Below, in pieces: positions 20,901 through 30,928 of a DNA stretch of 30,928 nt. Source of the DNA: Candidatus Woesearchaeota archaeon (GTDB lineage Archaea; Nanobdellota; Nanobdellia; SCGC-AAA011-G17; PNOQ01); assembly GCA_043812195.1 (NCBI GenBank), contig JBDRML010000024.1, positions 1 to 30,928 of the forward strand, written 5' to 3'. The position numbers and the translations under genes are program-made. The notes under the pieces are model-generated. The model worked only from the letters and a program-made list of their open reading frames with translations, did no database searches and was not told the DNA's origin. Position 1 is the first letter of the stretch. Each line of letters opens with the position of its first letter.

Positions 20901-21836
20901 TTAATCATTAGTTATCAAAAAAGGAATTGGTTTCTTTAAAGGATTAACAGTGCCCCTTTTATCTACATATTTTGGCTCTTCATGTGGTAAATAATGCAGC
21001 ATAGCAGGAAAAAATTCATTAGCAACATCTTTATACATTCTGACACAACCATGTGTAGATTCAACTTCATGCCAGGGTTTTGACATAATACAGCTATGTA
21101 ATCTAAATCCACTATCTCTATCACTTTCTTTAGGAAAATAACCCGGTTTATTTGAATTTATAAAAAGTTCAGACATATAATTCCCATATGGGTTTTCAGA
21201 TTTAGGATTTATTGTTCTCGGAGCAACTGGCTTAGTTTTTCCAAACCATTTAGGTGGCAACCACCAAGGAAATTCTACAATTCTTTTAACCCAAAATAAT
21301 CCATTTGGTGTTCCAAAATATTTTAATTTGTTTCCATCAGATGCGTCTTCATCCCAACCACCAATACCAACATCAGTTTTAAGAAGTAAGATTTCTCCCC
21401 CATTATAATTTTGGTAAATACATAATTCTTTTTGATTTTTTTTAACATGAATTCTTACATCCATCTCATCAACAAAAAAGTTTCTAGGCACTTCTATTTT
21501 AAATAAATACCTTGTAGTATCTGGTCTATAAATTTTTCCACCCCCAAAAAAATCATCAAGTCTTTGTTCAATTCCATCTAAATAATCTCCAAATACATAT
21601 ACAGAAGGAAATTCATTTGATATTTCTTGTCTAATTTTACTTCTTAAACTATCATTTACATCAGCTTGAGACAATTTTACTTCAAGAGATCGTTCTTGCA
21701 TTTCAATAGATCTTCTTAAGTCACGATTAACTAAATAAAATTCAGAATCAGAAGCATTACCAACAACAGGATTACCTAAAAGTCCCATTCCAATTAAGAT
21801 CCCCAAGCCTAACTTTCTTACCATTTTTATATTCAA
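20901..21836 (-). CDS. Secreted YkuD/L,D-transpeptidase-domain protein
   Basis: Signal-peptide-like N-terminus, TPNG, P.W.PP, NPYG, LH...STHGCVRM catalytic motif. Confidence 0.8.
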   Translation of the reverse strand: MNIKMVRKLGLGILIGMGLLGNPVVGNASDSEFYLVNRDLRRSIEMQERSLEVKLSQADVNDSLRSKIRQEISNEFPSVYVFGDYLDGIEQRLDDFFGGGKIYRPDTTRYLFKIEVPRNFFVDEMDVRIHVKKNQKELCIYQNYNGGEILLLKTDVGIGGWDEDASDGNKLKYFGTPNGLFWVKRIVEFPWWLPPKWFGKTKPVAPRTINPKSENPYGNYMSELFINSNKPGYFPKESDRDSGFRLHSCIMSKPWHEVESTHGCVRMYKDVANEFFPAMLHYLPHEEPKYVDKRGTVNPLKKPIPFLITND

Positions 21837-23367: not shown

Positions 23368-24093
23368 ATGCAGTTAATATACAAAGACGCAGTTTGGAAA
23401 AAAGAAATTAAATTAGGAAAAGAACTAATTGATTATCTTAAAAAGAATAAAACAAAGTCTATAGCTCTATTCGCATCAGTTCAATTCTTAAAATTAAACA
23501 AAGTAAAAAATCAGTTAAAAGAACTAAACATAAAGATAAACACTGCAAAAGCAAAAAGAACTGAAAAAGAAATTCAAATTTTAGGTTGTGACACTTATCA
23601 TGATTCATTCAAAGAAAATATAATTAAAAATTCAGATTTAATTTTATATATCGGAGATGGTTTATTCCATCCAAAAGCACTTTTACTATCTCAAAGAAAA
23701 AAAGATATTCTAATTTGGGATCCAGTTTCAGAAAAAAAACAAATTCTAACTAAAAAAGAAATCACAAAAATACTATTAAAATTAAAAGCCAATATTAAAA
23801 AATATTTAATGGCAAAAAATATTGGAATCTTAGTAACAATAAAGCCAGGACAGCAATATCTGCACTTAGCTAAAGAATTAAAAGAAGATTTAGAAAAAAA
23901 AGGAAAAAAAGCTTACATATTCATAGACAACACATTCTATTGGAATGAACTAGAAGGATATCCTTTCATAGAGTGTTGGGTTAACACTGCATGTCCAAGA
24001 ATAGGTTTAGACGATATAGTAGAAATCAAACAACCATTAATTAATATTAAAGAAGCTTTAAATACAGAAAAGGTTTTAGAGGAATTAGCTTAA
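23368..24093 (+). CDS. dph2: Dph2 C-terminal part (split gene)
   Basis: QILGC, GDGLFH, KPGQ, NTACPRI (second and third Cys). Confidence 0.85.
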   Translation: MQLIYKDAVWKKEIKLGKELIDYLKKNKTKSIALFASVQFLKLNKVKNQLKELNIKINTAKAKRTEKEIQILGCDTYHDSFKENIIKNSDLILYIGDGLFHPKALLLSQRKKDILIWDPVSEKKQILTKKEITKILLKLKANIKKYLMAKNIGILVTIKPGQQYLHLAKELKEDLEKKGKKAYIFIDNTFYWNELEGYPFIECWVNTACPRIGLDDIVEIKQPLINIKEALNTEKVLEELA

Positions 24094-24136
24094 AATGATT
24101 ACTCCTCGCCCTTCAGGGCGAGGAGTAATCATTTTA
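24091..24136. repeat. Perfect 21-bp inverted repeat (terminator or mobile-element end)
   Basis: TAAAATGATTACTCCTCGCCC-TTCA-GGGCGAGGAGTAATCATTTTA, beginning at the dph2 stop codon. Confidence 0.9.
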
Positions 24137-24143
24137 TGAATGG

Positions 24144-24389
24144 ATGCCAAAATTTTCTAAGTTGGCGAAACCTCATTTATCAATATTTAAACCTGCTGAA
24201 GACGATCAAGAAAACTTAAAAGATCCCAAATTCATTGACAATCCTATTGAATATCTTTGTTCAATGAGAATGGCATTTGAAAAAGAACATGGGGAACCAA
24301 TCTATCAAAACAATTTAGCTAGTTTATGGGGATTTCCGAGAGATAGAATTAATCCTTTGTTTTTAACTGATAAAACAAGTTTAGGTTAA
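24144..24389 (+). CDS. Hypothetical protein
   Basis: ORF only. Confidence 0.45.
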   Translation: MPKFSKLAKPHLSIFKPAEDDQENLKDPKFIDNPIEYLCSMRMAFEKEHGEPIYQNNLASLWGFPRDRINPLFLTDKTSLG

Positions 24390-25256
24390 TTTGATCTTCC
24401 AAATCCTATAACCTTTAGAGGATTTCAGAATATCATCTTGGTTAAATTGTAACGATTTTTTTTTGATAAGCTCTTTAATAACTCTTTCATTAGATATTAT
24501 TTCTGATTTAAAACCCTTTTCTGTTAAGAATTCTTTAGTTTCTTTTTCAGATTCAAAATAATCAAATTCTCTTTTTGTTATCTTAGAGATTTTTTCACGA
24601 ATGTTTTCTTTACCTAAAATTTCGTCTTTTTTCTTTTTTATTCTAGAAAAATCAGAGGTTAACCACAATCCCTCTTTTGAATAAGTTCCAAACAAGTATT
24701 TTATATTATCTCTAAACATCTTTTTTTCGTTTTTATCAAAATACATCAATAACCCTTCATGAATAATAACTAATTTTTTATTTTTGCCTTCTTCTAAATA
24801 AAGTTTTCCAATTTTATCCATTTCTTTTTTATCAAGAGGGTTTATATCCATAAAAAACAAATTTCTTGCATCTAATTTTTTTTGAGTAATTATTTCATTC
24901 AATATTTTTTCTTTTAAATCAATTAATCCTTTTAATTCTGTCTCAAGATATATAATATTTTTTTTATTTAAAAATTCTAAACTTCTTGGGGACAGACCAG
25001 ATGCTATCTCCACAATAAAAGCATCATTCATATTTGACAGGGAATCATTTAGTGAATAATATCTTCCTTCAATAAATGGGATAAAATCTGATTTTGAATT
25101 TAATGTATTTCCATAGTCTGGTAAATCTTCTATCCAATCTTTAAATTTTGTATCTATTAAATTAACAATTTCTTTTGAAAATGGAAGTTTTTGTTTGGCC
25201 CTCATTCTAGCACAGAAAACTGCAGTTGGACTTATCTTTGAATATTCTTTTCCCAT
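24381..25256 (-). CDS. Class I SAM-dependent methyltransferase (LCM-like)
   Basis: ISPTA, VEIASGLSPR, IHEGLLMYF. Confidence 0.75.
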   Translation of the reverse strand: MGKEYSKISPTAVFCARMRAKQKLPFSKEIVNLIDTKFKDWIEDLPDYGNTLNSKSDFIPFIEGRYYSLNDSLSNMNDAFIVEIASGLSPRSLEFLNKKNIIYLETELKGLIDLKEKILNEIITQKKLDARNLFFMDINPLDKKEMDKIGKLYLEEGKNKKLVIIHEGLLMYFDKNEKKMFRDNIKYLFGTYSKEGLWLTSDFSRIKKKKDEILGKENIREKISKITKREFDYFESEKETKEFLTEKGFKSEIISNERVIKELIKKKSLQFNQDDILKSSKGYRIWKIKLT

Positions 25257-25494
25257 ACACTTCTCAATATTTATTCATTTATAAAAATTGTGTCTTCTTT
25301 TCCCACCGCCCCAAATCTTCTTTTTTAGAAAAAAAGAAGCAAAAAAGAACGCGCACCTCAAATTTAATAGGATGGCTAAAAACCCACCTGAAATAAGAGA
25401 GATTTTAGAAATATCATAACGGAGAATTAGAAACTTGCTCCGTTTCACTCCGCACCACGCCTTGCAGGCTTTCATAAAATCAAAGATTTTATTC

Positions 25495-25522
25495 AGGTCG
25501 CTGAACAGGGCTTATGTGCAAT
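25495..25522 (+). repeat. dif-like site S1
   Basis: AGGTCGCTGAA-CAGGGC-TTATGTGCAAT. Confidence 0.75.
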
Positions 25523-25523
25523 A

Positions 25524-25796
25524 TTACTCGGGCTTTGGAATTATAGAAAATCTATCTTCCATTTCTTTTAAAATCGCATTCCGATCATCCCACATTGTAA
25601 CAGAATCACAAGCTCTATTTCTAACACTGTCATACATTACAACTTTCTTATTCGTCGACCAATTGGGAAGATGTCTATATTCCTTAGATAATAATGTAGA
25701 AAATTCGTCATTAATTTCAATTACAGCGTCACGGTTACTATCTCGAGCGGCTGTAACCATTCTTTCCAATGTTTGGTATATTTGTGATTCCGACAT
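25524..25796 (-). CDS. Cassette 1 hypothetical protein (90 aa, MSESQ...KPE)
   Basis: Start moved to ATG 25796; TTTATATA box at 25820-25827; the longer track ORF runs through the linker. Confidence 0.7.
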   Translation of the reverse strand: MSESQIYQTLERMVTAARDSNRDAVIEINDEFSTLLSKEYRHLPNWSTNKKVVMYDSVRNRACDSVTMWDDRNAILKEMEDRFSIIPKPE

Positions 25797-25888
25797 GTTT
25801 ATACAGTAATTTGAACCCATATATAAATATATTCCAAAGTCCTGTGTCATACTGTCGGTCGCTTCGCTCCCTCGTTCGCCTTGCAGGC

Positions 25889-25916
25889 TCACCACATAAC
25901 AGCGATTAGTTTCAAT
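25889..25916 (+). repeat. dif-like site S2
   Basis: TCACCACATAA-CAGCGA-TTAGTTTCAAT. Confidence 0.8.
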
Positions 25917-25961
25917 TCAAAAATCGTGCTCCCAAAGTTATTCGAGGCAAGAATTGTTATT

Positions 25962-26105
25962 TTATTTAAATTCTAGAGTTTTATAAAGAATTTTTGGTTC
26001 TATTTGAGAAGCTCTTACCATAGCATCTGCTCTTTCATAACCTGCTCTTAATTCAGCTTCTCTTTCTCTTACCATAGCATCTGTATCTATCATTATGTCT
26101 ATCAT
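25962..26105 (-). CDS. Cassette 2 micro-protein (47 aa), absent from the ORF track
   Basis: MIDIMIDTDAMVREREAELRAGYERADAMVRASQIEPKILYKTLEFK; BRE/TATA CCGAAAGTTTTAAATA upstream; fills the space between two inverted-repeat pairs. Confidence 0.65.
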   Translation of the reverse strand: MIDIMIDTDAMVREREAELRAGYERADAMVRASQIEPKILYKTLEFK

Positions 26106-26279
26106 GTTTTTAATAAAATAACACTACTATTTAAAACTTTCGGTTATTAGTCTTTTAATAGTAGTTACAATTCTTGCCTCTCAATATTCTAAATTCCCGT
26201 CCACCCATGCACAATTTTTGAACTCGAGATTTTTCGGCTTCGCCGAACATTGCATTAAAATCTCGTCCTCATTACATTC

Positions 26280-26307
26280 GAAGAAACTAACACTAATTAT
26301 GTGCAAT
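26280..26307 (+). repeat. dif-like site S3
   Basis: GAAGAAACTAA-CACTAA-TTATGTGCAAT. Confidence 0.8.
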
Positions 26308-26322
26308 AAAAATGAGTTGCCC

Positions 26323-26646
26323 TTATTCTTTACGTTCAAACTCTACAAGAATATCAACATTCTCATAATCACAAGTAATATTTAAACCTTCAAGGTTTGA
26401 AATCTCGCATTCACATCTGCTCTTGTCAACATAGCCTATACAATTTTCCCAAGTAGGTGTATCATAGGTAATTTGTTCCACACTAACTTTGAAACCGTAA
26501 CAAGGACACTTTATGGAACCTAATAGACCCATTACATTATTGGCATCATACGAAGTTCTTTTGGGGTAAAAAAATATCGCCAGTAAAATTAGAATAATAA
26601 TTATGAGGATTATTGCTTTTCGGTTCTTAAAAAAAGAAACATTCAT
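26323..26646 (-). CDS. Cassette 3 membrane-anchored Cys-rich protein
   Basis: Start moved to ATG 26646 with a TATA box upstream; N-terminal TM helix and six Cys. Confidence 0.7.
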   Translation of the reverse strand: MNVSFFKNRKAIILIIIILILLAIFFYPKRTSYDANNVMGLLGSIKCPCYGFKVSVEQITYDTPTWENCIGYVDKSRCECEISNLEGLNITCDYENVDILVEFERKE

Positions 26647-26790
26647 AAAAAAATTAGAGATAATAGAAATATATAAATCTATTGCTTCGGGCAACTCATT
26701 TTTACTTCTCTAAATCTTGATGTTAAACGAAATAATGCTCAGCACAAAGTGAATAGAAAACTTTATATTATCTATTAATAAATTAATGAT

Positions 26791-27051
26791 ATGCAATGGA
26801 AAGAATTTTTTAAACCAAACATTTTCAAGATTATTTTAACAATTATCTTGTTAATTGCGTCACTTTATGGAATATATTATTTGATTTTTTCTCTGTCATA
26901 TTATGTTGGCGAATGTGTTCCAGGTAGTTCATGTCCTAATTTCTCTGAATTAGCACTAAAAGGCGTTCTCTACTCTTCTATTCCTGCACTTTTAATCAAT
27001 TATTTAATTTCCTGTATAATATATTCAATATATAAAAGAATCAAAAAATAA
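26791..27051 (+). CDS. Cassette 3 second gene, small two-TM protein
   Basis: Two TM helices around a CVPGSSC loop; TTTATA box upstream. Confidence 0.7.
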   Translation: MQWKEFFKPNIFKIILTIILLIASLYGIYYLIFSLSYYVGECVPGSSCPNFSELALKGVLYSSIPALLINYLISCIIYSIYKRIKK

Positions 27052-27096
27052 AAATTATTTCCCTAATTCATTTCTTTTCAGTCGCTTCGCTCCTTC

Positions 27097-27124
27097 AGGG
27101 CACATAACAGCGATTATACTCAAT
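27097..27124 (+). repeat. dif-like site S4
   Basis: AGGGCACATAA-CAGCGA-TTATACTCAAT. Confidence 0.8.
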
Positions 27125-27202
27125 TTTCTTCCATATTCACTCCAGAAAACTCAAAAATCTTAATATCAGACAAGCTGATTTAATAATATTTTGGCCTTAA
27201 CA

Positions 27203-27230
27203 GGCGAGTCTAACACTAATTATGTACAAT
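27203..27230 (+). repeat. dif-like site S5
   Basis: GGCGAGTCTAA-CACTAA-TTATGTACAAT. Confidence 0.8.
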
Positions 27231-27231
27231 A

Positions 27232-27501
27232 TTACTCGACCGCCGCCTTTAATTTCTGTAAAAGTTGTTTTATTTCATCTATCTCAATATGCAGAATTTT
27301 CGGTTCTTTTCTTCCCTCAATTTCATCCATCACAGAGAATCCGTCAATCACATCTTGTGTTTCGCCATTTAGTTTTTTATATGCCTCAAATTCTTCGTTT
27401 AGAAATCTACTGCAAATTTCCGCAATTTCTTCTCTAATCTTTCCACTATCGTTCTGGATTAGGTCTTCCAGTTTCTCAATTAATTTACTTATCAATTCCA
27501 T
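27232..27501 (-). CDS. Cassette 5 small acidic helical protein
   Basis: ORF with TTTATATA upstream; stop lies in the conserved TATTACTC. Confidence 0.7.
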   Translation of the reverse strand: MELISKLIEKLEDLIQNDSGKIREEIAEICSRFLNEEFEAYKKLNGETQDVIDGFSVMDEIEGRKEPKILHIEIDEIKQLLQKLKAAVE

Positions 27502-27573
27502 AACGAAATGAAAAACATGATACTATATAAAACTTGTGCGGCGGTCTGCGTCATACTATCCCCTCGCTATCGC

Positions 27574-27601
27574 TCGACACATAACACTGATTAAGTTCAA
27601 T
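27574..27601 (+). repeat. dif-like site S6
   Basis: TCGACACATAA-CACTGA-TTAAGTTCAAT. Confidence 0.8.
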
Positions 27602-27636
27602 TTTCTTCCATATTCACTACAGAAAACTCAAAACCC

Positions 27637-28074
27637 TTAATCTCTAAAAATATACTCGCCTTTTTCTTCGTAAACAATCGCTCCCTTAAACGGCTCTTTT
27701 GTTTTATAAAGAGGCGACTGATATGCCTGATTCAGAATTCCAGCAACCTCATCAGCAGTATCTTTATTAGTTCCGTTAGGATATGTTGCTTGTAACATGT
27801 AATTTATACCATCTTGTTTTGCTTCTTGAGCAAGAGCAGTTAATCTCTTGTCGCCTTCTATGTTATCCATACCTTCAATTAAAGAAAGTTCTAACTGAGA
27901 GGGTGTTCTAACAAGTTCGCGAATTGTATGTAATTCTGTTTCAATTTCTTGTTTTGAAGCATCGCAATAAAAAAATCCATATGCTTTTCCAATTTGTTTA
28001 GCCATGTGACTCTCTCTAGTTACTTTATTGCCTTTTTTATCAATAAATGCATATGATTTAATTTCTTTTTCCAT
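27637..28074 (-). CDS. Cassette 6 hypothetical protein
   Basis: ORF with CGAAAGGTTTATATA BRE/TATA upstream. Confidence 0.75.
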   Translation of the reverse strand: MEKEIKSYAFIDKKGNKVTRESHMAKQIGKAYGFFYCDASKQEIETELHTIRELVRTPSQLELSLIEGMDNIEGDKRLTALAQEAKQDGINYMLQATYPNGTNKDTADEVAGILNQAYQSPLYKTKEPFKGAIVYEEKGEYIFRD

Positions 28075-28213
28075 ATTATTACTATGTATTAATAAGTATA
28101 TAAACCTTTCGTTTTATAACTACTCAATAGAGACTATAAACTATTAACTAAGCCAGCCCGAACTCTCCTTCCGCTTCGCTTCAGTCGGGACGTTACACTT
28201 TTTCCTTCGGAAA

Positions 28214-28241
28214 ACCACGCAGAACAGACATTATGTAACAT
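28214..28241 (+). repeat. dif-like site S7
   Basis: ACCACGCAGAA-CAGACA-TTATGTAACAT. Confidence 0.75.
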
Positions 28242-28313
28242 ATTACTCGGCAACCTTAACTTTCTCACCGATAGTTTTATTAGAACATTATGTATAATAG
28301 TCAACAACTAAAA

Positions 28314-28730
28314 ATGACAGAAAAATACTATATTGATACGTCAATTTGGATAGACCTTGTTGAAGATAGAAAAGGCTACAACGACGAACCATTAGGAAGT
28401 TATGCTCTTAAACTATTTGCTATGATTAAAGCCAAGAAACACAAAATGGTTGTTTCTGATCTTTTAATCAGAGAATTAGAATCGAATTATTCCATGGAAG
28501 AGATTAATGGAATGATGCTTCCGTTTCAAAAAATAATGGAAAAAATATTTGTCACTAAAGAACAACATGATGAAGCCAAAAAAATCGCCGAAGAAAGAAA
28601 TCTACCTCCAAGTGATGTGCTTCATGCAATTGTAGCAAGAAATAACAATTATACCATGATCACTAGGAACAAACACTTCAAGGAGTTAGAAGACATTACT
28701 AAACATTCAAAACCAGAAGAAATCATCTAA
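28314..28730 (+). CDS. Cassette 7 PIN-domain (VapC-like) protein
   Basis: YIDTSIWID, ELE, DVLHA, ITRNKHF; start moved to ATG 28314. Confidence 0.88.
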   Translation: MTEKYYIDTSIWIDLVEDRKGYNDEPLGSYALKLFAMIKAKKHKMVVSDLLIRELESNYSMEEINGMMLPFQKIMEKIFVTKEQHDEAKKIAEERNLPPSDVLHAIVARNNNYTMITRNKHFKELEDITKHSKPEEII

Positions 28731-28984
28731 GTATTTTTAGAAATTTCTTCAAATGCTTTAGCTCTTATCTTCTCATAATCTTTTTCTGTTGTCTTTTTCT
28801 TAACGCTACCTTTTAGATGAACTAATTCCATCATTGCTTTCTTTAACTTAATCTCTTCAACTTTCTCTCTAAGAGCATTCCTAATAAATTCTGTTCTATT
28901 TTGGTAGCCTTCATTCTTTACGACTTTGTCTACTTCTCCCAAAAATACATTATCCATTTTGACAGTTATCATCTCCGTTACCAT
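28727..28984 (-). CDS. Cassette 7 ribbon-helix-helix (CopG/NikR-like) protein
   Basis: ITVKM...VDKVV...GYQNRTEFIRNALR. Confidence 0.88.
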   Translation of the reverse strand: MVTEMITVKMDNVFLGEVDKVVKNEGYQNRTEFIRNALREKVEEIKLKKAMMELVHLKGSVKKKTTEKDYEKIRAKAFEEISKNT

Positions 28985-29127
28985 ATAGCCATTGCATATA
29001 CAATAACTATATAAACTTTTCTATCATTTTCTTATAAAATACATAATGTCACTATAAATCGATCAGCTCAGACGGTTGCCTGCGTCATAACGCTGACATC
29101 TTCGATGTCAGGTGGAACATAAAGCTC

Positions 29128-29155
29128 CATTTGCATAATACCAATTATACTCAAT
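29128..29155 (+). repeat. dif-like site S8
   Basis: CATTTGCATAA-TACCAA-TTATACTCAAT. Confidence 0.8.
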
Positions 29156-29208
29156 AAATTTGTAGCCCGAGATATTATTTGCTTATTCACTTGTAGAACA
29201 AAATAAGC

Positions 29209-29604
29209 CTAGTCATCAAGAGGAGTAAAATATTGCTCGAAGAGTTCCATGCTTTTTCGGAGATAGCGAGCCTCTTGGTCCGATTTATCCTCTTTTGCTT
29301 CGTAAAGCTCAGAAGCTCGTGTGTATGATCTCGCTTGGCTGGTTAACAAGTCGTTAGCCCAGGCTTCTAGGTCGTCAGCGGTCGTGTAAGGTAGTAAATG
29401 TACATTGCGATCTTTTCCCATGAATTCCATTTCTCCATAAAGACCAGCACAAGCTCCAGAGTGAACAAGATACCTCAACGTGATTCCTTCATTCAATCTA
29501 AATCTTCGACTGTTGACCATTACTTCTGTGCCGGCTTCTATTTGGTATGTGCCGCTTCCGTCAGGGAAGACACCCAATTTCACTTCTATTGGTGATAGTT
29601 CCAT
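29209..29604 (-). CDS. Cassette 8 hypothetical protein
   Basis: ATG 29604; enclosed by two nested inverted-repeat pairs. Confidence 0.7.
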   Translation of the reverse strand: MELSPIEVKLGVFPDGSGTYQIEAGTEVMVNSRRFRLNEGITLRYLVHSGACAGLYGEMEFMGKDRNVHLLPYTTADDLEAWANDLLTSQARSYTRASELYEAKEDKSDQEARYLRKSMELFEQYFTPLDD

Positions 29605-29754
29605 ATTCAAGGAGAACCTCTGCTTATTTTTATAATTATGGTTTTTACTCAGGCTACAAATTTACTTCTCCGCTCCTCGTTCACTTCGTGAACTGCGGTG
29701 CTCAACCCCATTGCATTCTCACCTCGTTTATTAACTTCGTTATAAACTCGGCTC

Positions 29755-29782
29755 GGGGAATATAACACCAATTAGTTACAAT
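29755..29782 (+). repeat. dif-like site S9
   Basis: GGGGAATATAA-CACCAA-TTAGTTACAAT. Confidence 0.8.
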
Positions 29783-29785
29783 CGC

Positions 29786-30415
29786 TCAGGGTCGCCTTGC
29801 ATATATTTCCCAAAAAGCTGATTTTTTACTTGGGAAATTTTCACTTACACCTTCAAAATCCTTTAATTTAATGATTTCATACCTTTTAAAGAATTCTCTC
29901 ATCTCTTCCTCTGCAAAATAATGATGAGGCATGTCTCCGTCAATGGAGTCAATATTAATTTTTGTATTTGGTTCAATTTCCTTACCAGTTAAATATTCAG
30001 GGTGTTTTGTTGATGGAACTCTCAGAAATAATACACCTCCTTTTCTTAATACTCTATAAATTTCAGAAATAGTTTTTTTTATTTTTGCTATTTTTCCATG
30101 TTCAATAACAAAATCGCATAAAACACCATCAAAAAAACTATCTTTATATGATAAAGAAGTCATATCACATTGTTTAAATTCAATTTCTTTTAAAATCTCA
30201 CGTGATATTTTTAATGCACTCTCCGATGAATCACAGCCATAAACTTGAAAACCTTGTTTTAATAAATAAAGAGTATGCCTTCCAGTTCCACAGCCCAAAT
30301 CGAGAATTCTTTCTAATCGTTCTTTTTTAAAAAAATCAGCAGCTTCAATAACTTTTATAGATGGTTCTTTCTGAACTATTCCTTTCTCTTTGTATAATGA
30401 ATCCCAATCCTTCAT
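29786..30415 (-). CDS. Cassette 9 class I SAM-dependent methyltransferase
   Basis: ILDLGCGTGRH, GCDSS, CDM, RVLRKGG. Confidence 0.9.
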   Translation of the reverse strand: MKDWDSLYKEKGIVQKEPSIKVIEAADFFKKERLERILDLGCGTGRHTLYLLKQGFQVYGCDSSESALKISREILKEIEFKQCDMTSLSYKDSFFDGVLCDFVIEHGKIAKIKKTISEIYRVLRKGGVLFLRVPSTKHPEYLTGKEIEPNTKINIDSIDGDMPHHYFAEEEMREFFKRYEIIKLKDFEGVSENFPSKKSAFWEIYARRP

Positions 30416-30507
30416 AATATAATAAAAAGTAATTTTAATATATAAATACTTCTATGGGCGACCTTGAGCGACTTTTCTACCGAAATTTTACCCCACTTCG
30501 TAGGGTA

Positions 30508-30535
30508 AAAGAAACTAACACCAATTATACAACAT
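30508..30535 (+). repeat. dif-like site S10
   Basis: AAAGAAACTAA-CACCAA-TTATACAACAT. Confidence 0.8.
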
Positions 30536-30537
30536 TA

Positions 30538-30789
30538 TTACTCGACAGAATTCCTATGTGGCTCCCAGTTCGGATTCCAGGTACCAGATGTAATCATTAA
30601 AGAGAATTCAAGTGCTGATTGCACTTAGCATAAAGACGGTTCTATTCTTTCATAACTTGCTCGGGCTGCTTCATAACTTTTCTGGATAAGTGTTTGCCCT
30701 GAATCAGAAACTATTCCAGCTAATGCTATAGCATAGAGTGATGTGGCCCCCACACCAACCAACAAATTAAGTCTTAAGTTCTTATCCAT
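30538..30789 (-). pseudogene. Cassette 10 gene (83 codons) with one in-frame TAA
   Basis: ATG 30789, hydrophobic N-terminus, TAA at 30625-30627, frame then stays open to the conserved GAG-TAA at 30538. Confidence 0.6.
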
Positions 30790-30928
30790 AAAGGAGATAA
30801 TTCATCAAGTTTTAAATGTTTATCGGAATTCTGCCTACGTCATACACAAAACCTTTATTGTCCTAATTCCGTTTCACTTCATTATAATCATAAATCTTTT
30901 GGTTTGCTCCATTTAACGCTCACTCTCC

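What the first reader, a model, noticed from the sequence alone, without database searches (positions are those of the whole stretch)
25512..30518. Site arms co-vary across each cassette, not within each site: signature of former circular units
Seen, counted by hand over the inner 8 bp: the right arm of site n matches the reverse complement of the left arm of site n+1. S1/S2 7/8 (TTATGTGC vs TTATGTGG), S2/S3 8/8 (TTAGTTTC), S3/S4 8/8 (TTATGTGC), S4/S5 7/8, S5/S6 6/8, S6/S7 3/8, S7/S8 7/8, S8/S9 7/8, S9/S10 7/8. The two arms within any single site match at only 3-5/8. Inference: each chromosomal site is a hybrid of two neighbours, and the excised circle would carry its own near-palindromic site, like R'/R'' complementarity in circular integron cassettes. 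Alternatively, the two ends pair to close a folded single strand. Either way this defines the unit boundaries and puts the crossover in or beside the spacer.
Basis: partly seen in the sequence, partly recalled or inferred. Interest (0 to 1): 0.92.

Follow-up and report, generated by a model that had tools for sequence, protein, structure and literature searches.

The report
Archaeal Xer-type gene cassette array
The repeated sites separate small mobile gene cassettes in an archaeon, arranged much like a bacterial integron but built from a chromosome-resolving (Xer-type) recombinase and its 28-base site, and I found no published description of such a system.

Summary
Adjacent-site arm scores are 7,8,8,7,6,3,7,7,7 of 8 and within-site scores are 3-5 of 8. 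Permutation gives p=2.8e-4.

It replicates in 18 arrays from other genomes: 74 pairs, none of 20,000 permutations as high.

The sites are 28 bp, built like dif: an 11-bp arm, a 6-bp spacer and an 11-bp arm, all in one orientation. They separate cassettes of about 100-1100 bp, most carrying their own archaeal TATA box.

Each cassette also has a private inverted repeat just inside its arms. At its left-arm end it has a structured module with covarying stems.

The window holds no recombinase. A 263-aa XerA-like enzyme lacking the integron-integrase insert sits on another contig beside an attI-like site that starts a second array. Its relatives form clades separate from housekeeping xerA genes, which carry a palindromic dif upstream.

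Best reading: an integron-like cassette platform derived from Xer/dif. Each cassette's recombination element is a palindrome cut at its centre.

Strand-biased hairpin loops, heterogeneous spacers and the integrase-side spacer kept at array starts point to single-strand exchange. Circles were not seen.

Eight searches of the paper library found no description.

The parts
25495..25522 (+). Site S1, the array boundary. The left half (arm AGGTCGCTGAA plus spacer CAGGGC) is of the attI/dif-like kind. The right arm TTATGTGCAAT belongs to cassette 1.
   Evidence: The same left-half type recurs in other genomes (L121, L115, L134).
25512..25899 (+). Cassette 1 (388 nt). It holds a 91-aa ORF at 25524-25799 (-) with a TATA octamer 21 nt upstream of the start. 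Its private inverted repeat lies at about 25530-25546 and 25828-25843.
   Evidence: Arm score 7/8. Inverted repeat. TATA. No family match.
25841..25908 (+). End module of cassette 1 plus left arm, spacer and TTA. This is the conserved, reusable half of the recombination element.
   Evidence: 94% copy at C30:1124-1192 next to different cargo and a different right arm. Loose ends at 25841 and 25908 in runs X2, X3 and X4.
25889..25916 (+). Site S2
25906..26290 (+). Cassette 2 (385 nt). It holds a 47-aa ORF at 25962-26105 (-). Its private inverted repeat is at 25944-25970 and 26154-26180.
   Evidence: Arm score 8/8. Repeat I4. Inverted-repeat score 14.
26280..26307 (+). Site S3
26297..27107 (+). 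Cassette 3 (811 nt), probably two fused cassettes. ORFs lie at 26323-26646 (-) and 26791-27051 (+). The inverted repeat 26296-26322 / 26689-26715 ends at a degenerate site near 26705-26730.
   Evidence: Arm score 8/8 for the outer arms. Repeat I2. The degenerate site was read.
27097..27124 (+). Site S4
27114..27213 (+). Cassette 4 (100 nt) with no ORF. Most of it is an 86-nt element that is also at the start of cassette 6.
   Evidence: Arm score 7/8. Repeat D1, 79%; 87% over 67 nt.
27203..27230 (+). Site S5
27220..27584 (+). Cassette 5 (365 nt). It holds an 89-aa ORF at 27232-27501 (-). Its inverted repeat is GACCGCCGC / GCGGCGGTC.
   Evidence: Arm score 6/8. Inverted repeat. TATA.
27574..27601 (+). 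Site S6
27591..28224 (+). Cassette 6 (634 nt). It holds a 145-aa ORF at 27637-28074 (-). It is the one mismatched pair (3/8) and looks like a chimera: the first ~55 nt copy cassette 4, and the rest is another cassette's body and end.
   Evidence: The chimera reading is inference.
28214..28241 (+). Site S7
28231..29138 (+). Cassette 7 (908 nt). It holds a PIN-domain ORF at 28290-28730 (+) and a ribbon-helix-helix ORF at 28727-28984 (-).
   Evidence: Arm score 7/8. Pfam PF01850 at 1.4e-10 and PF17723 at 4.6e-8.
29128..29155 (+). Site S8
29145..29765 (+). Cassette 8 (621 nt). It holds a 131-aa orphan ORF at 29209-29604 (-). Its inverted repeat is at 29155-29171 and 29648-29664.
   Evidence: Arm score 7/8. 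Repeat I20, 94%. No homologue in the other 239 genomes of the order.
29755..29782 (+). Site S9
29772..30518 (+). Cassette 9 (747 nt). It holds a SAM-dependent methyltransferase ORF at 29786-30415 (-). Its inverted repeat is CGCTCAGGGTCGCC / GGCGACCTTGAGCG.
   Evidence: Arm score 7/8. PF08241 at 1.9e-22. Inverted repeat.
30508..30535 (+). Site S10
30525..30928 (+). Cassette 10, cut by the contig end. The array goes on in the reverse complement of contig C37 with five more sites, then ordinary genes.
   Evidence: 141-nt identical overlap.

Best explanation
**What it is.** This is an integron-like gene-cassette array of a small, AT-rich, DPANN-type archaeon. It is run by a dedicated tyrosine recombinase descended from XerA, not by an integron integrase.

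**The recombination element.** Every cassette carries one recombination element that is an imperfect palindrome. Reading from the cargo, it consists of:
- a private stem half;
- a structured module of one or two hairpins;
- an 8-bp variable arm ending in TAA;
- a 6-nt spacer;
- an arm that starts with TTA, is complementary over 8 bp and ends in a conserved AAT;
- the other private stem half.

**Where it is cut.** The recombinase cuts this element at its centre, beside the spacer on the conserved-arm side. An integrated cassette therefore has half an element at each end. Each chromosomal site is a hybrid of two neighbouring cassettes. That is why the arms match across a cassette and not within a site.

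**Shown here.**
- The anatomy and its statistical support.
- Recurrence across many genomes.
- The link to a separate recombinase clade with an attI-like site.
- Re-use of one element with different cargo.
- Cassette presence/absence between samples.

**Inferred.**
- Cassettes move as excised circles.
- The reactive form is a folded single strand, the minus strand of the window.
- Only that strand is exchanged, next to the conserved arm.
- Replication completes the event, as in integron attC x attI and CTX-phage integration.
For: **1. Arm matching.** It is real and general.

**2. Second layer of pairing.** The private inverted repeat inside the arms beats the 99th percentile of non-cognate pairings in 21 of 75 cassettes. 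It beats the 95th percentile in 34 of 75.

**3. Modelled circle junctions.** They fold at -21.5 kcal/mol against -15.1 for the junctions standing in the array. The circle form is more stable in 55 of 73, Wilcoxon p=3.5e-8. The predicted shape is a branched structure with an 8-bp arm hairpin and a 6-nt loop.

**4. End-module stems covary.**
- 80.9% of cells are paired, against 34-52% when the partners are slid.
- 12 of 16 pairs change on both sides.
- None of 500 shuffles reaches the score.
- These figures rest on 13 of the 17 sequences I had.

**5. Strand bias.** CTTCG occurs 51 times in 34 of 51 modules on the plus strand; CGAAG occurs twice. The loops therefore read GAA on the minus strand. 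The minus strand folds more stably in 46 of 51.

**6. The recombinase.**
- It is the 263-aa protein at L001:1462-2253(-).
- Its best family is XerA, 201 bits.
- The integron-integrase model matches only in two pieces.
- The best solved relative is P. abyssi XerA in one stretch, while IntI4 aligns in two.
- All six catalytic residues are invariant in 13 relatives.
- It sits about 45 bp from an attI-like site whose right arm matches the next site's left arm 8/8.

**7. Tree of 42 XerA-like proteins.**
- One clade of 12 holds 11 attI-linked genes, G000's among them.
- A second clade of 8 holds 4 attI-linked genes.
- A separate clade of 13 holds 12 genes that have a palindromic dif just upstream (labels read by eye).

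**8. Spacers.**
- At least 15 kinds occur among 114 sites.
- Sites with the same left arm share a spacer in 27 of 218 pairs.
- Sites with the same right arm do so in 10 of 184 pairs.
- The baseline is 378 of 6441 pairs.
- Integrase-side spacers (TAGGCG, TAGGTG, TACTTG and the like) are kept at array starts.

**9. Turnover.** A contig of run X2 joins 25857 to 27081, so cassettes 2 and 3 are missing there. Runs X2-X4 carry the 25841-25908 module in another context. C30 holds the same arms and module around different cargo.

**10. Spread.**
- The strict 20-nt site pattern hits 114 of 240 genomes of the order, clustered on one strand of a contig.
- It hits 91 of 301 genomes in a class-level sample.

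**11. Cassette content.** It is accessory: orphan ORFs, PIN plus RHH, a methyltransferase. Seven of 9 minus-strand ORFs have a TATA octamer 21-24 nt upstream.
Against: - No circular junction or excision product cut at the core was seen.
- The one deletion variant (X2) joins inside a 13-nt stretch shared by two end modules, about 40 nt left of the core. It may be homologous recombination, not site-specific recombination.
- The array in the window has no recombinase beside it. The enzyme is on another contig and starts another array.
- No separate housekeeping xerA or palindromic dif was found in this genome, which is 90% complete. The enzyme could therefore be the cell's only Xer.
- The spacer-with-left-arm signal weakens when pairs from the same locus are dropped: 15 of 199 against 8 of 168.
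- In a free single-stranded circle the two arms pair with each other. That leaves one duplex arm, not the two a tyrosine recombinase dimer normally binds. How the substrate is presented is unsolved.
- Some adjacent pairs score low (3-5 of 8), which needs fusions or missed sites to explain.
- Site calls outside G000 rest on a regular expression that fixes parts of the motif.
Confidence: 0.7

Rival explanations
1. The cassettes are independent small mobile elements that exploit the cell's ordinary chromosome-dimer resolvase (IMEX-like). They pile up at a dif-type site by conventional double-strand recombination. The palindromic arms only reflect binding by a homodimer.
For: The sites have dif architecture, and the attI-like left arms resemble the palindromic dif found upstream of housekeeping xerA in relatives. 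No second XerA-like gene and no dif were found in G000. Tandem accumulation at dif is known for bacterial IMEX; I saw only the abstracts listed.
Against: - The array-linked recombinases form clades apart from the dif-linked xerA clade, and G001, G012 and G031 hold both kinds.
- Homodimer binding would drive all arms to one optimum, not to at least 8 arm types that stay complementary.
- It does not explain the private inverted repeats, the covarying module or the strand-biased loops.
- Spacers differ between most sites. From established knowledge of tyrosine recombinases, that hinders complete two-strand exchange.
Confidence: 0.14
2. It is a canonical integron (IntI, attI, attC) whose attC sites the reader misread.
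For: - A tyrosine recombinase sits beside a primary site.
- Arrays of small accessory genes follow it.
- The start of each cassette is complementary to a box at its end.
- Integrons have been reported in DPANN archaea (PMC9668308; sections and passages read).
Against: - The recombinase lacks the IntI-specific insert: TIGR02249 gives 168 bits against a cut-off of 265, in two pieces, and IntI4 aligns in two stretches.
- The box complementary to a cassette's start lies 6 nt from the next cassette, not 50-130 nt upstream.
- ORFs face either way, 27 against 23, and carry their own promoters.
- Nothing in Rfam matched.
Confidence: 0.03
3. Each unit is a non-autonomous transposon with terminal inverted repeats (MITE-like, with cargo). 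The units have inserted next to one another.
For: The ends of each unit are inverted repeats: arms plus the private repeat.
Against: - There are no target-site duplications; the flanking spacers differ.
- No transposase was seen.
- The constant 28-bp dif-like junction, the single orientation and the link to a Xer-like gene with an attI-like site do not fit this reading.
- The inverted repeats differ in nearly every unit, which one transposase would hardly tolerate.
Confidence: 0.04
4. The units are invertible segments (shufflon- or inverton-like) flipped between their inverted ends.
For: The ends are inverted repeats and ORFs occur in both orientations, 27 minus and 23 plus.
Against: The structured module is always at the left-arm end and the conserved AAT always on the right arm. 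The spacers are asymmetric and all point one way. Both fit deletion and insertion, not inversion.
Confidence: 0.03

Closest known systems
Integrons (IntI integrase, attI, attC cassettes), including the archaeal integrons of Ghaly et al. 2022 (PMC9668308)
   Same: - A tyrosine recombinase gene sits next to a primary site that starts an array.
- The array holds small, mostly orphan accessory genes and toxin-antitoxin-like pairs.
- Each chromosomal site is a hybrid.
- The first bases of a cassette are complementary to a box at its own end.
- There are structured, sequence-variable recombination elements and signs of a single-stranded substrate.
- Clusters occur without an adjacent integrase.
   Different: - The enzyme is XerA-like and lacks the IntI insert.
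- The element is cut at the centre of its palindrome instead of near its 3' end, so half of it lies at each end of the cassette and the gene sits inside the long-range stem.
- The core is a plain 11-6-11 site.
- Cassettes have their own promoters and either orientation.
Xer/dif chromosome-dimer resolution (archaeal XerA) and elements that exploit it (IMEX, such as CTX phage)
   Same: - The site is 28 bp with arms ending in TAA and starting in TTA around a 6-bp spacer.
- The closest sequence and structure relatives of the enzyme are XerA.
- Relatives carry a xerA gene with dif immediately upstream.
- CTX phage also integrates as folded single-stranded DNA by one strand exchange (recalled; abstracts only seen).
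   Different: - There are about 20 or more sites per genome in arrays, not one.
- The arms within a site are not inverted repeats.
- The recombinase belongs to a dedicated paralogous clade.
- The cargo is single genes, not phages or islands.
pdif modules of Acinetobacter plasmids
   Same: Small gene modules, toxin-antitoxin pairs among them, are bounded by 28-bp Xer-type sites. The arms facing a module are inverted copies of each other. This is recalled; only an abstract was seen.
   Different: There the sites alternate in orientation and only two arm types (XerC and XerD) alternate. Here all sites point one way and at least 8 arm types occur.

Membership tests
Integron | The integrase carries the IntI-specific additional domain | tested here: not met
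   TIGR02249 gives 168.2 bits against a cut-off of 265, matched in two stretches with the middle of the profile unmatched. NF011946 gives 106 bits against 435. IntI4 (2a3v) aligns in two stretches, XerA (4a8e) in one. The protein is 263 aa.
Integron | An attC of roughly 57-141 nt lies after each ORF, built R''-L''...L'-R' with the crossover in R' at its 3' end (definition recalled) | tested here: not met
   The box complementary to a cassette's first bases lies at the cassette's very end, 6 nt from the next cassette. Junctions as they stand in the array fold weakly. No attC covariance model was on hand and Rfam gave nothing.
Integron | A primary site lies beside the integrase gene, followed by an array of co-oriented sites | tested here: met
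   L001, L014, L028 and L122 show this arrangement.
Integron | Cassettes are mostly promoterless, co-oriented and read from a common promoter (recalled) | tested here: not met
   A TATA octamer lies 21-24 nt upstream of 7 of 9 minus-strand cassette ORFs. ORF orientation is 27 minus and 23 plus over 50 cassettes.
XerA/dif | The recombinase is a member of the XerA family | tested here: inconclusive
   NF040815 is the best model, but 201.4 bits is below its cut-off of 220. The best solved relative is XerA. In the tree the protein falls outside the dif-linked clade.
XerA/dif | One near-palindromic 28-bp site per chromosome | tested here: not met
   About 22 sites lie on 6 contigs of G000. Within-site arm matches are 3-5 of 8. 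The palindromic dif type seen in relatives was not found in G000.
pdif modules | Sites alternate in orientation, with two arm types | tested here: not met
   All 15 sites of the joined array have the conserved AAT end on the right arm, and their spacers start with CA, or TA in one case.
IMEX (elements exploiting host Xer) | The elements use the housekeeping Xer and have no dedicated recombinase | tested here: inconclusive
   Relatives have separate dif-linked and array-linked clades. In G000 only the array-linked gene was found.
TIR transposon / MITE | Target-site duplication and a cognate transposase | tested here: not met
   The flanking spacers differ. No transposase appeared among the window ORFs scanned.

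The most novel reading that the evidence does not exclude
This would be a second kind of integron: a cassette-capture platform of DPANN archaea. In it a XerA-derived recombinase exchanges one strand of a folded, centre-cut palindromic element. It would either be an independent invention or resemble the long-sought intermediate between Xer/dif and integrons. The gene sits inside the element's long-range stem, so it may also show how new cassettes are made.
Probability: 0.35. Interest if true: 0.95.

Novelty: new variant of a known kind. Interest (0 to 1): 0.85.

Why it matters
- **Origin of integrons.** Integron integrases are thought to descend from Xer recombinases, yet no intermediate system is known, and how cassettes arise is an open question. 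Here a Xer-type enzyme, a dif-type core and an integron-type array occur together, in organisms with tiny genomes that depend on hosts.
- **Gene turnover in DPANN archaea.** The system appears in roughly a third to a half of the genomes sampled in one archaeal order and class. It could be a main route of gene turnover in these archaea.
- **A testable recombination chemistry.** The system offers structure-specific, centre-cut sites with many spacer variants that can be tested directly.
- **Genome assembly.** It explains why these metagenome assemblies break at such loci.

Tried and rejected
**Tools and searches that gave nothing useful**
- Rfam gave only chance-level matches.
- Two loose chain detectors on AT-rich DNA gave mostly noise and I dropped them.
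- The scan of genome contigs with the integrase alignment used a generic peptide pattern. It returned mainly bacterial Xer or integrase genes. Five archaeal loci (L035, L036, L045, L060, L082) showed no arrays with my detector, so only their organism names were used.
- The cassette 8 protein has no homologue in the other 239 genomes of the order. The test 'same cargo, other neighbours' therefore could not be done with it.
- The two G007 cassettes with identical arms proved to have unrelated cargo.
- RNAalifold on its own found only one of the module's helices. The fuller structure was written by hand and then counted.

**Metagenome contigs**
- No contig showed a circle junction of any cassette. 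Contigs drop rare forms, so this says little.
- Run X4 has almost no cover at 29204-29699 and X2 and X4 none at 26724-26971. Without a bridging contig this is not evidence of absence.

**Local scans**
- Bacterial-type promoter and terminator scans were at chance level.
- No tRNA gene is in the window.
- A palindromic dif was not found in G000.

**Analyses left aside**
- I did not pursue an association between strict-pattern counts and recombinase clade across genomes. The arrays break assemblies and the counts are too noisy.

**Papers not visible**
- The supplements of PMC9668308, which list archaeal MAGs and attC calls, could not be seen. They might show whether any of these arrays were ever called as attC clusters.

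Full report
**The observation**

The window is a whole contig, C24, of a 0.94-Mb genome with 29% G+C in 45 contigs. It encodes a diphthamide-synthesis protein, and its cassette genes have archaeal TATA boxes. The nearest named public records for its recombinase are Woesearchaeota and Pacearchaeota MAGs. I therefore take it for a DPANN-type archaeon; that is inference.

From 25495 to the contig end there are ten 28-bp sites of one design:
- a left arm ending in TAA;
- a 6-nt spacer, mostly of the form CA...A;
- a right arm of the form TTA, five variable bases, AAT.

All ten point the same way.

The right arm of site n against the reverse complement of the left arm of site n+1 gives 7,8,8,7,6,3,7,7,7 of 8. 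The two arms of one site give 3-5 of 8. Of 200,000 re-dealings of the left arms, none beat the observed sum of 60 and the share reaching it gives p=2.8e-4.

The match is confined to arm positions 4-8. Positions 9-10 are systematically non-complementary. The palindrome is thus exactly 8 bp and the site stays polar.

**The rest of the array and a second array**

The contig end overlaps the end of C37 by 141 identical bases. Read through, the array has five more sites and then ordinary genes. The extra pairs score 5,6,8,6.

The window has no recombinase. Four tyrosine recombinase genes are in the genome. One of them, 263 aa on C36 next to an SMC gene, lies about 45 bp from a site with a distinct left half (arm ending CTAATAA, spacer TAGGCG). 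That site's right arm is matched 8/8 by the left arm of the next site, one cassette further on.

The genome therefore has an integrase-linked array start on C36 and an integrase-less array on C24-C37. Fragments of arrays also lie on C30 and C3.

**Replication elsewhere**

Homologues of the recombinase at 40-60% identity are in 33 of 41 related genomes, often at contig ends.

A strict 20-nt site pattern hits 114 of 240 genomes of the order.
- The total is 258 matches. By my hand count of the table, the reversed-pattern control gives about 53.
- The hits cluster on one strand of single contigs. For example, there are seven within 3.5 kb next to a recombinase gene in G031.
- A class-level sample gives 91 of 301 genomes, with arrays in other orders.

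In 18 arrays of at least 3 sites fetched from other genomes there are 74 adjacent pairs.
- I dropped three loci with only 2 sites.
- No other filter was applied, so false and missed sites add noise.
- Adjacent pairs average 6.08 of 8, against 4.90 for non-adjacent pairs of the same array.
- None of 20,000 within-array permutations reaches the observed sum.

**More than the arms pair**

Just inside the arms each cassette has a private inverted repeat of about 9-27 bp. Examples are 25944-25970 with 26154-26180 and 29155-29171 with 29648-29664.

Over 75 cassettes the cognate score exceeds the 99th percentile of non-cognate start/end pairings in 21 cases. It exceeds the 95th percentile in 34.

On the left-arm side only, 40-100 nt lie between this repeat and the arm. 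This stretch is a module with one or two hairpins and a conserved unpaired box.

For one module type I had 17 sequences and used 13. I left out 4 that lacked the arrangement by eye. A hand-written structure is paired in 80.9% of cells, against 34-52% with slid partners. Twelve of 16 pairs change on both sides, and none of 500 shuffles reaches the score.

Modelled circle junctions (cassette end, spacer, own start) fold on average 6.4 kcal/mol better than the junctions that stand in the array. The circle form is more stable in 55 of 73. They fold into a branched shape: the private stem, the module hairpins and an 8-bp arm hairpin with the spacer as its loop.

**Which strand, and where the junction lies**

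Hairpin loops in the modules are strongly polar.
- CTTCG occurs 51 times in 34 of 51 modules on the plus strand and CGAAG twice.
- In cassette interiors the counts are 38 and 12 in seven times more sequence.
- These 51 cassettes were selected for an arm score of at least 6.

The flanking bases pair, as in GCTTCGC, ACTTCGT and CCTTCGG. These are therefore three-base loops closed by C-G. On the minus strand they read GAA, the loop of the unusually stable DNA mini-hairpins described in the 1990s (recalled, not checked here). The minus strand also folds better in 46 of 51 cases.

Three further observations agree with this.
- The fully conserved arm is the one that lies 5' of the spacer on the minus strand. 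By the usual rule for tyrosine recombinases, the monomer bound there cuts the minus strand.
- Spacers go with the left arm rather than the right: 27 of 218 against 10 of 184 identical, with a baseline of 378 of 6441. The signal is weaker across loci, 15 of 199 against 8 of 168.
- Integrase-side sites keep a spacer type of their own while carrying a cassette's right arm.

Together these place the junction between the spacer and the right arm. They fit exchange of one strand only.

Spacers differ between most sites; at least 15 kinds occur among 114 sites. A full two-strand exchange through a non-identical overlap is known to be inefficient for this enzyme family.

**The enzyme**

- The best family model is archaeal XerA, at 201 bits, under its cut-off of 220.
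- The integron-integrase model matches in two pieces, leaving the part that holds the IntI insert unmatched.
- P. abyssi XerA aligns in one stretch and V. cholerae IntI4 in two.
- R, K, H, R, H and Y are invariant in 13 relatives.

Upstream regions, read by eye, fall into two kinds. One kind has an attI-like site whose right arm is a cassette arm. The other has a near-perfect palindromic dif, with arms of the form TTCGCATAA / TTATGCGAA around six bases, 30-60 bp before the start codon.

In a tree of 42 proteins:
- the dif-linked genes form one supported clade (12 of its 13 rows);
- the attI-linked genes fall in two other supported clades (11 of 12 rows, with G000's among them, and 4 of 8 rows);
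- G001, G012 and G031 hold both kinds.

The array enzyme is therefore a dedicated paralogue in relatives. In G000 itself no dif-linked copy was found. The genome is 90% complete, so this stays open.

**Mobility**

- The 68-nt block 25841-25908 (module, left arm, spacer, TTA) recurs at 94% on C30. There the cassette has the same arms and the same start motif but other cargo, and another right arm follows.
- Contigs of three groundwater runs from different studies carry the same block with other sequence on both sides, breaking at 25841 and 25908.
- One contig of run X2 joins 25857 to 27081, so cassettes 2 and 3 are absent there. The join lies in 13 nt shared by two modules, not in the core. It shows turnover but not the site-specific cut.
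- In G007 two cassettes share arms but not cargo.
- The element is thus a reusable unit that comes in families, as attC sites do. Its arm complementarity belongs to the element, not to the gene.

**The exceptions**

- Cassette 6 (3/8) begins with a copy of the element that makes up cassette 4 and then switches to other sequence. It looks like a fusion that lost a site.
- Cassette 3 holds an internal inverted repeat that ends at a degenerate site. It looks like two cassettes.

**What it is and is not**

It works like an integron. There is a recombinase beside a primary site, hybrid sites, structured elements of variable sequence and accessory cargo: orphan ORFs, PIN plus RHH and a methyltransferase.

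It is not a member of that family. The IntI insert and the attC layout are absent. The genes face either way, 27 against 23, and carry their own promoters.

It is built from Xer/dif parts but is not a dimer-resolution site. It differs from pdif modules, whose sites alternate in orientation.

**What has been published**

The archaeal integrons of Ghaly et al. are described as canonical, with attC sites found by IntegronFinder and IntI carrying the extra domain (PMC9668308; passages and sections 7, 14 and 15 read). A 2021 review of archaeal tyrosine recombinases has no occurrence of 'cassette' (PMC8371274; term search only).

Eight searches of the paper library found no description of Xer-type cassette arrays in archaea. 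Subscription journals and supplements were not visible.

**Verdict**

- Still inferred: circles, single-strand exchange on the minus strand, and completion by replication.
- The main gap is how a folded circle would offer two duplex arms to the enzyme.

Noticed in passing
L137, L142, L145, L146, L148-L152 (upstream of xerA-like genes in related genomes): Housekeeping-type xerA genes of this order carry a near-perfect palindromic 28-bp dif 30-60 bp upstream of their start codon. This is a xerA-dif module like those of bacteria with a single Xer. Four of these ORF calls (L140, L141, L143, L151) run over the site.
   Followed up: partly
G000 contigs C30:213-320 and C36 (L001:2750-2881): These are ORF-less mini-cassettes of about 80-110 nt. 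Their arms still match (7/8), but the next junction has a 9-nt spacer (TCGCAAACG or TCGCATACG) instead of 6 nt. My site pattern misses them.
   Followed up: no
window 27101-27167 and 27578-27644: An element of about 67-86 nt is shared by cassette 4, which is little else, and the start of cassette 6. Contigs of X1 and X4 show a 58-nt 'goes back' joint here, perhaps a tandem copy.
   Followed up: partly
window 25236-25483, especially 25313-25346: A low-complexity palindromic stretch just left of the array has very high summed contig depth in all four metagenome runs (24-479 against about 5-20 elsewhere). It has many loose ends and a 90% copy on C17. It seems to be a short repeat common in these communities.
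   Followed up: no
window 24091-24136: A perfect 22-nt inverted repeat with a 2-nt gap lies between the diphthamide-synthesis gene and the next ORF.
   Followed up: no
window 28290-28984: The PIN-domain and ribbon-helix-helix ORFs of cassette 7 are convergent and overlap tail to tail by 4 nt. That is not the usual co-directional toxin-antitoxin layout.
   Followed up: no
window 26012-26029 and 26066-26083: An exact 18-nt direct repeat, 54 nt apart, lies inside the 47-aa ORF of cassette 2.
   Followed up: no
window 20901-21836: An ORF with an L,D-transpeptidase (YkuD) catalytic domain occurs in what seems to be an archaeon (PF03734, 1.6e-13).
   Followed up: no
window 24381-25256: The 291-aa ORF that borders the array has no Pfam match. 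By eye it looks like a methyltransferase-type fold. It is not a recombinase.
   Followed up: partly
G000 contig ends: Twelve pairs of contig ends share identical 141-mers, among them C24 with C37, C24 with C34 and C22 with C36. The assembly graph could be walked further than the contigs show.
   Followed up: partly
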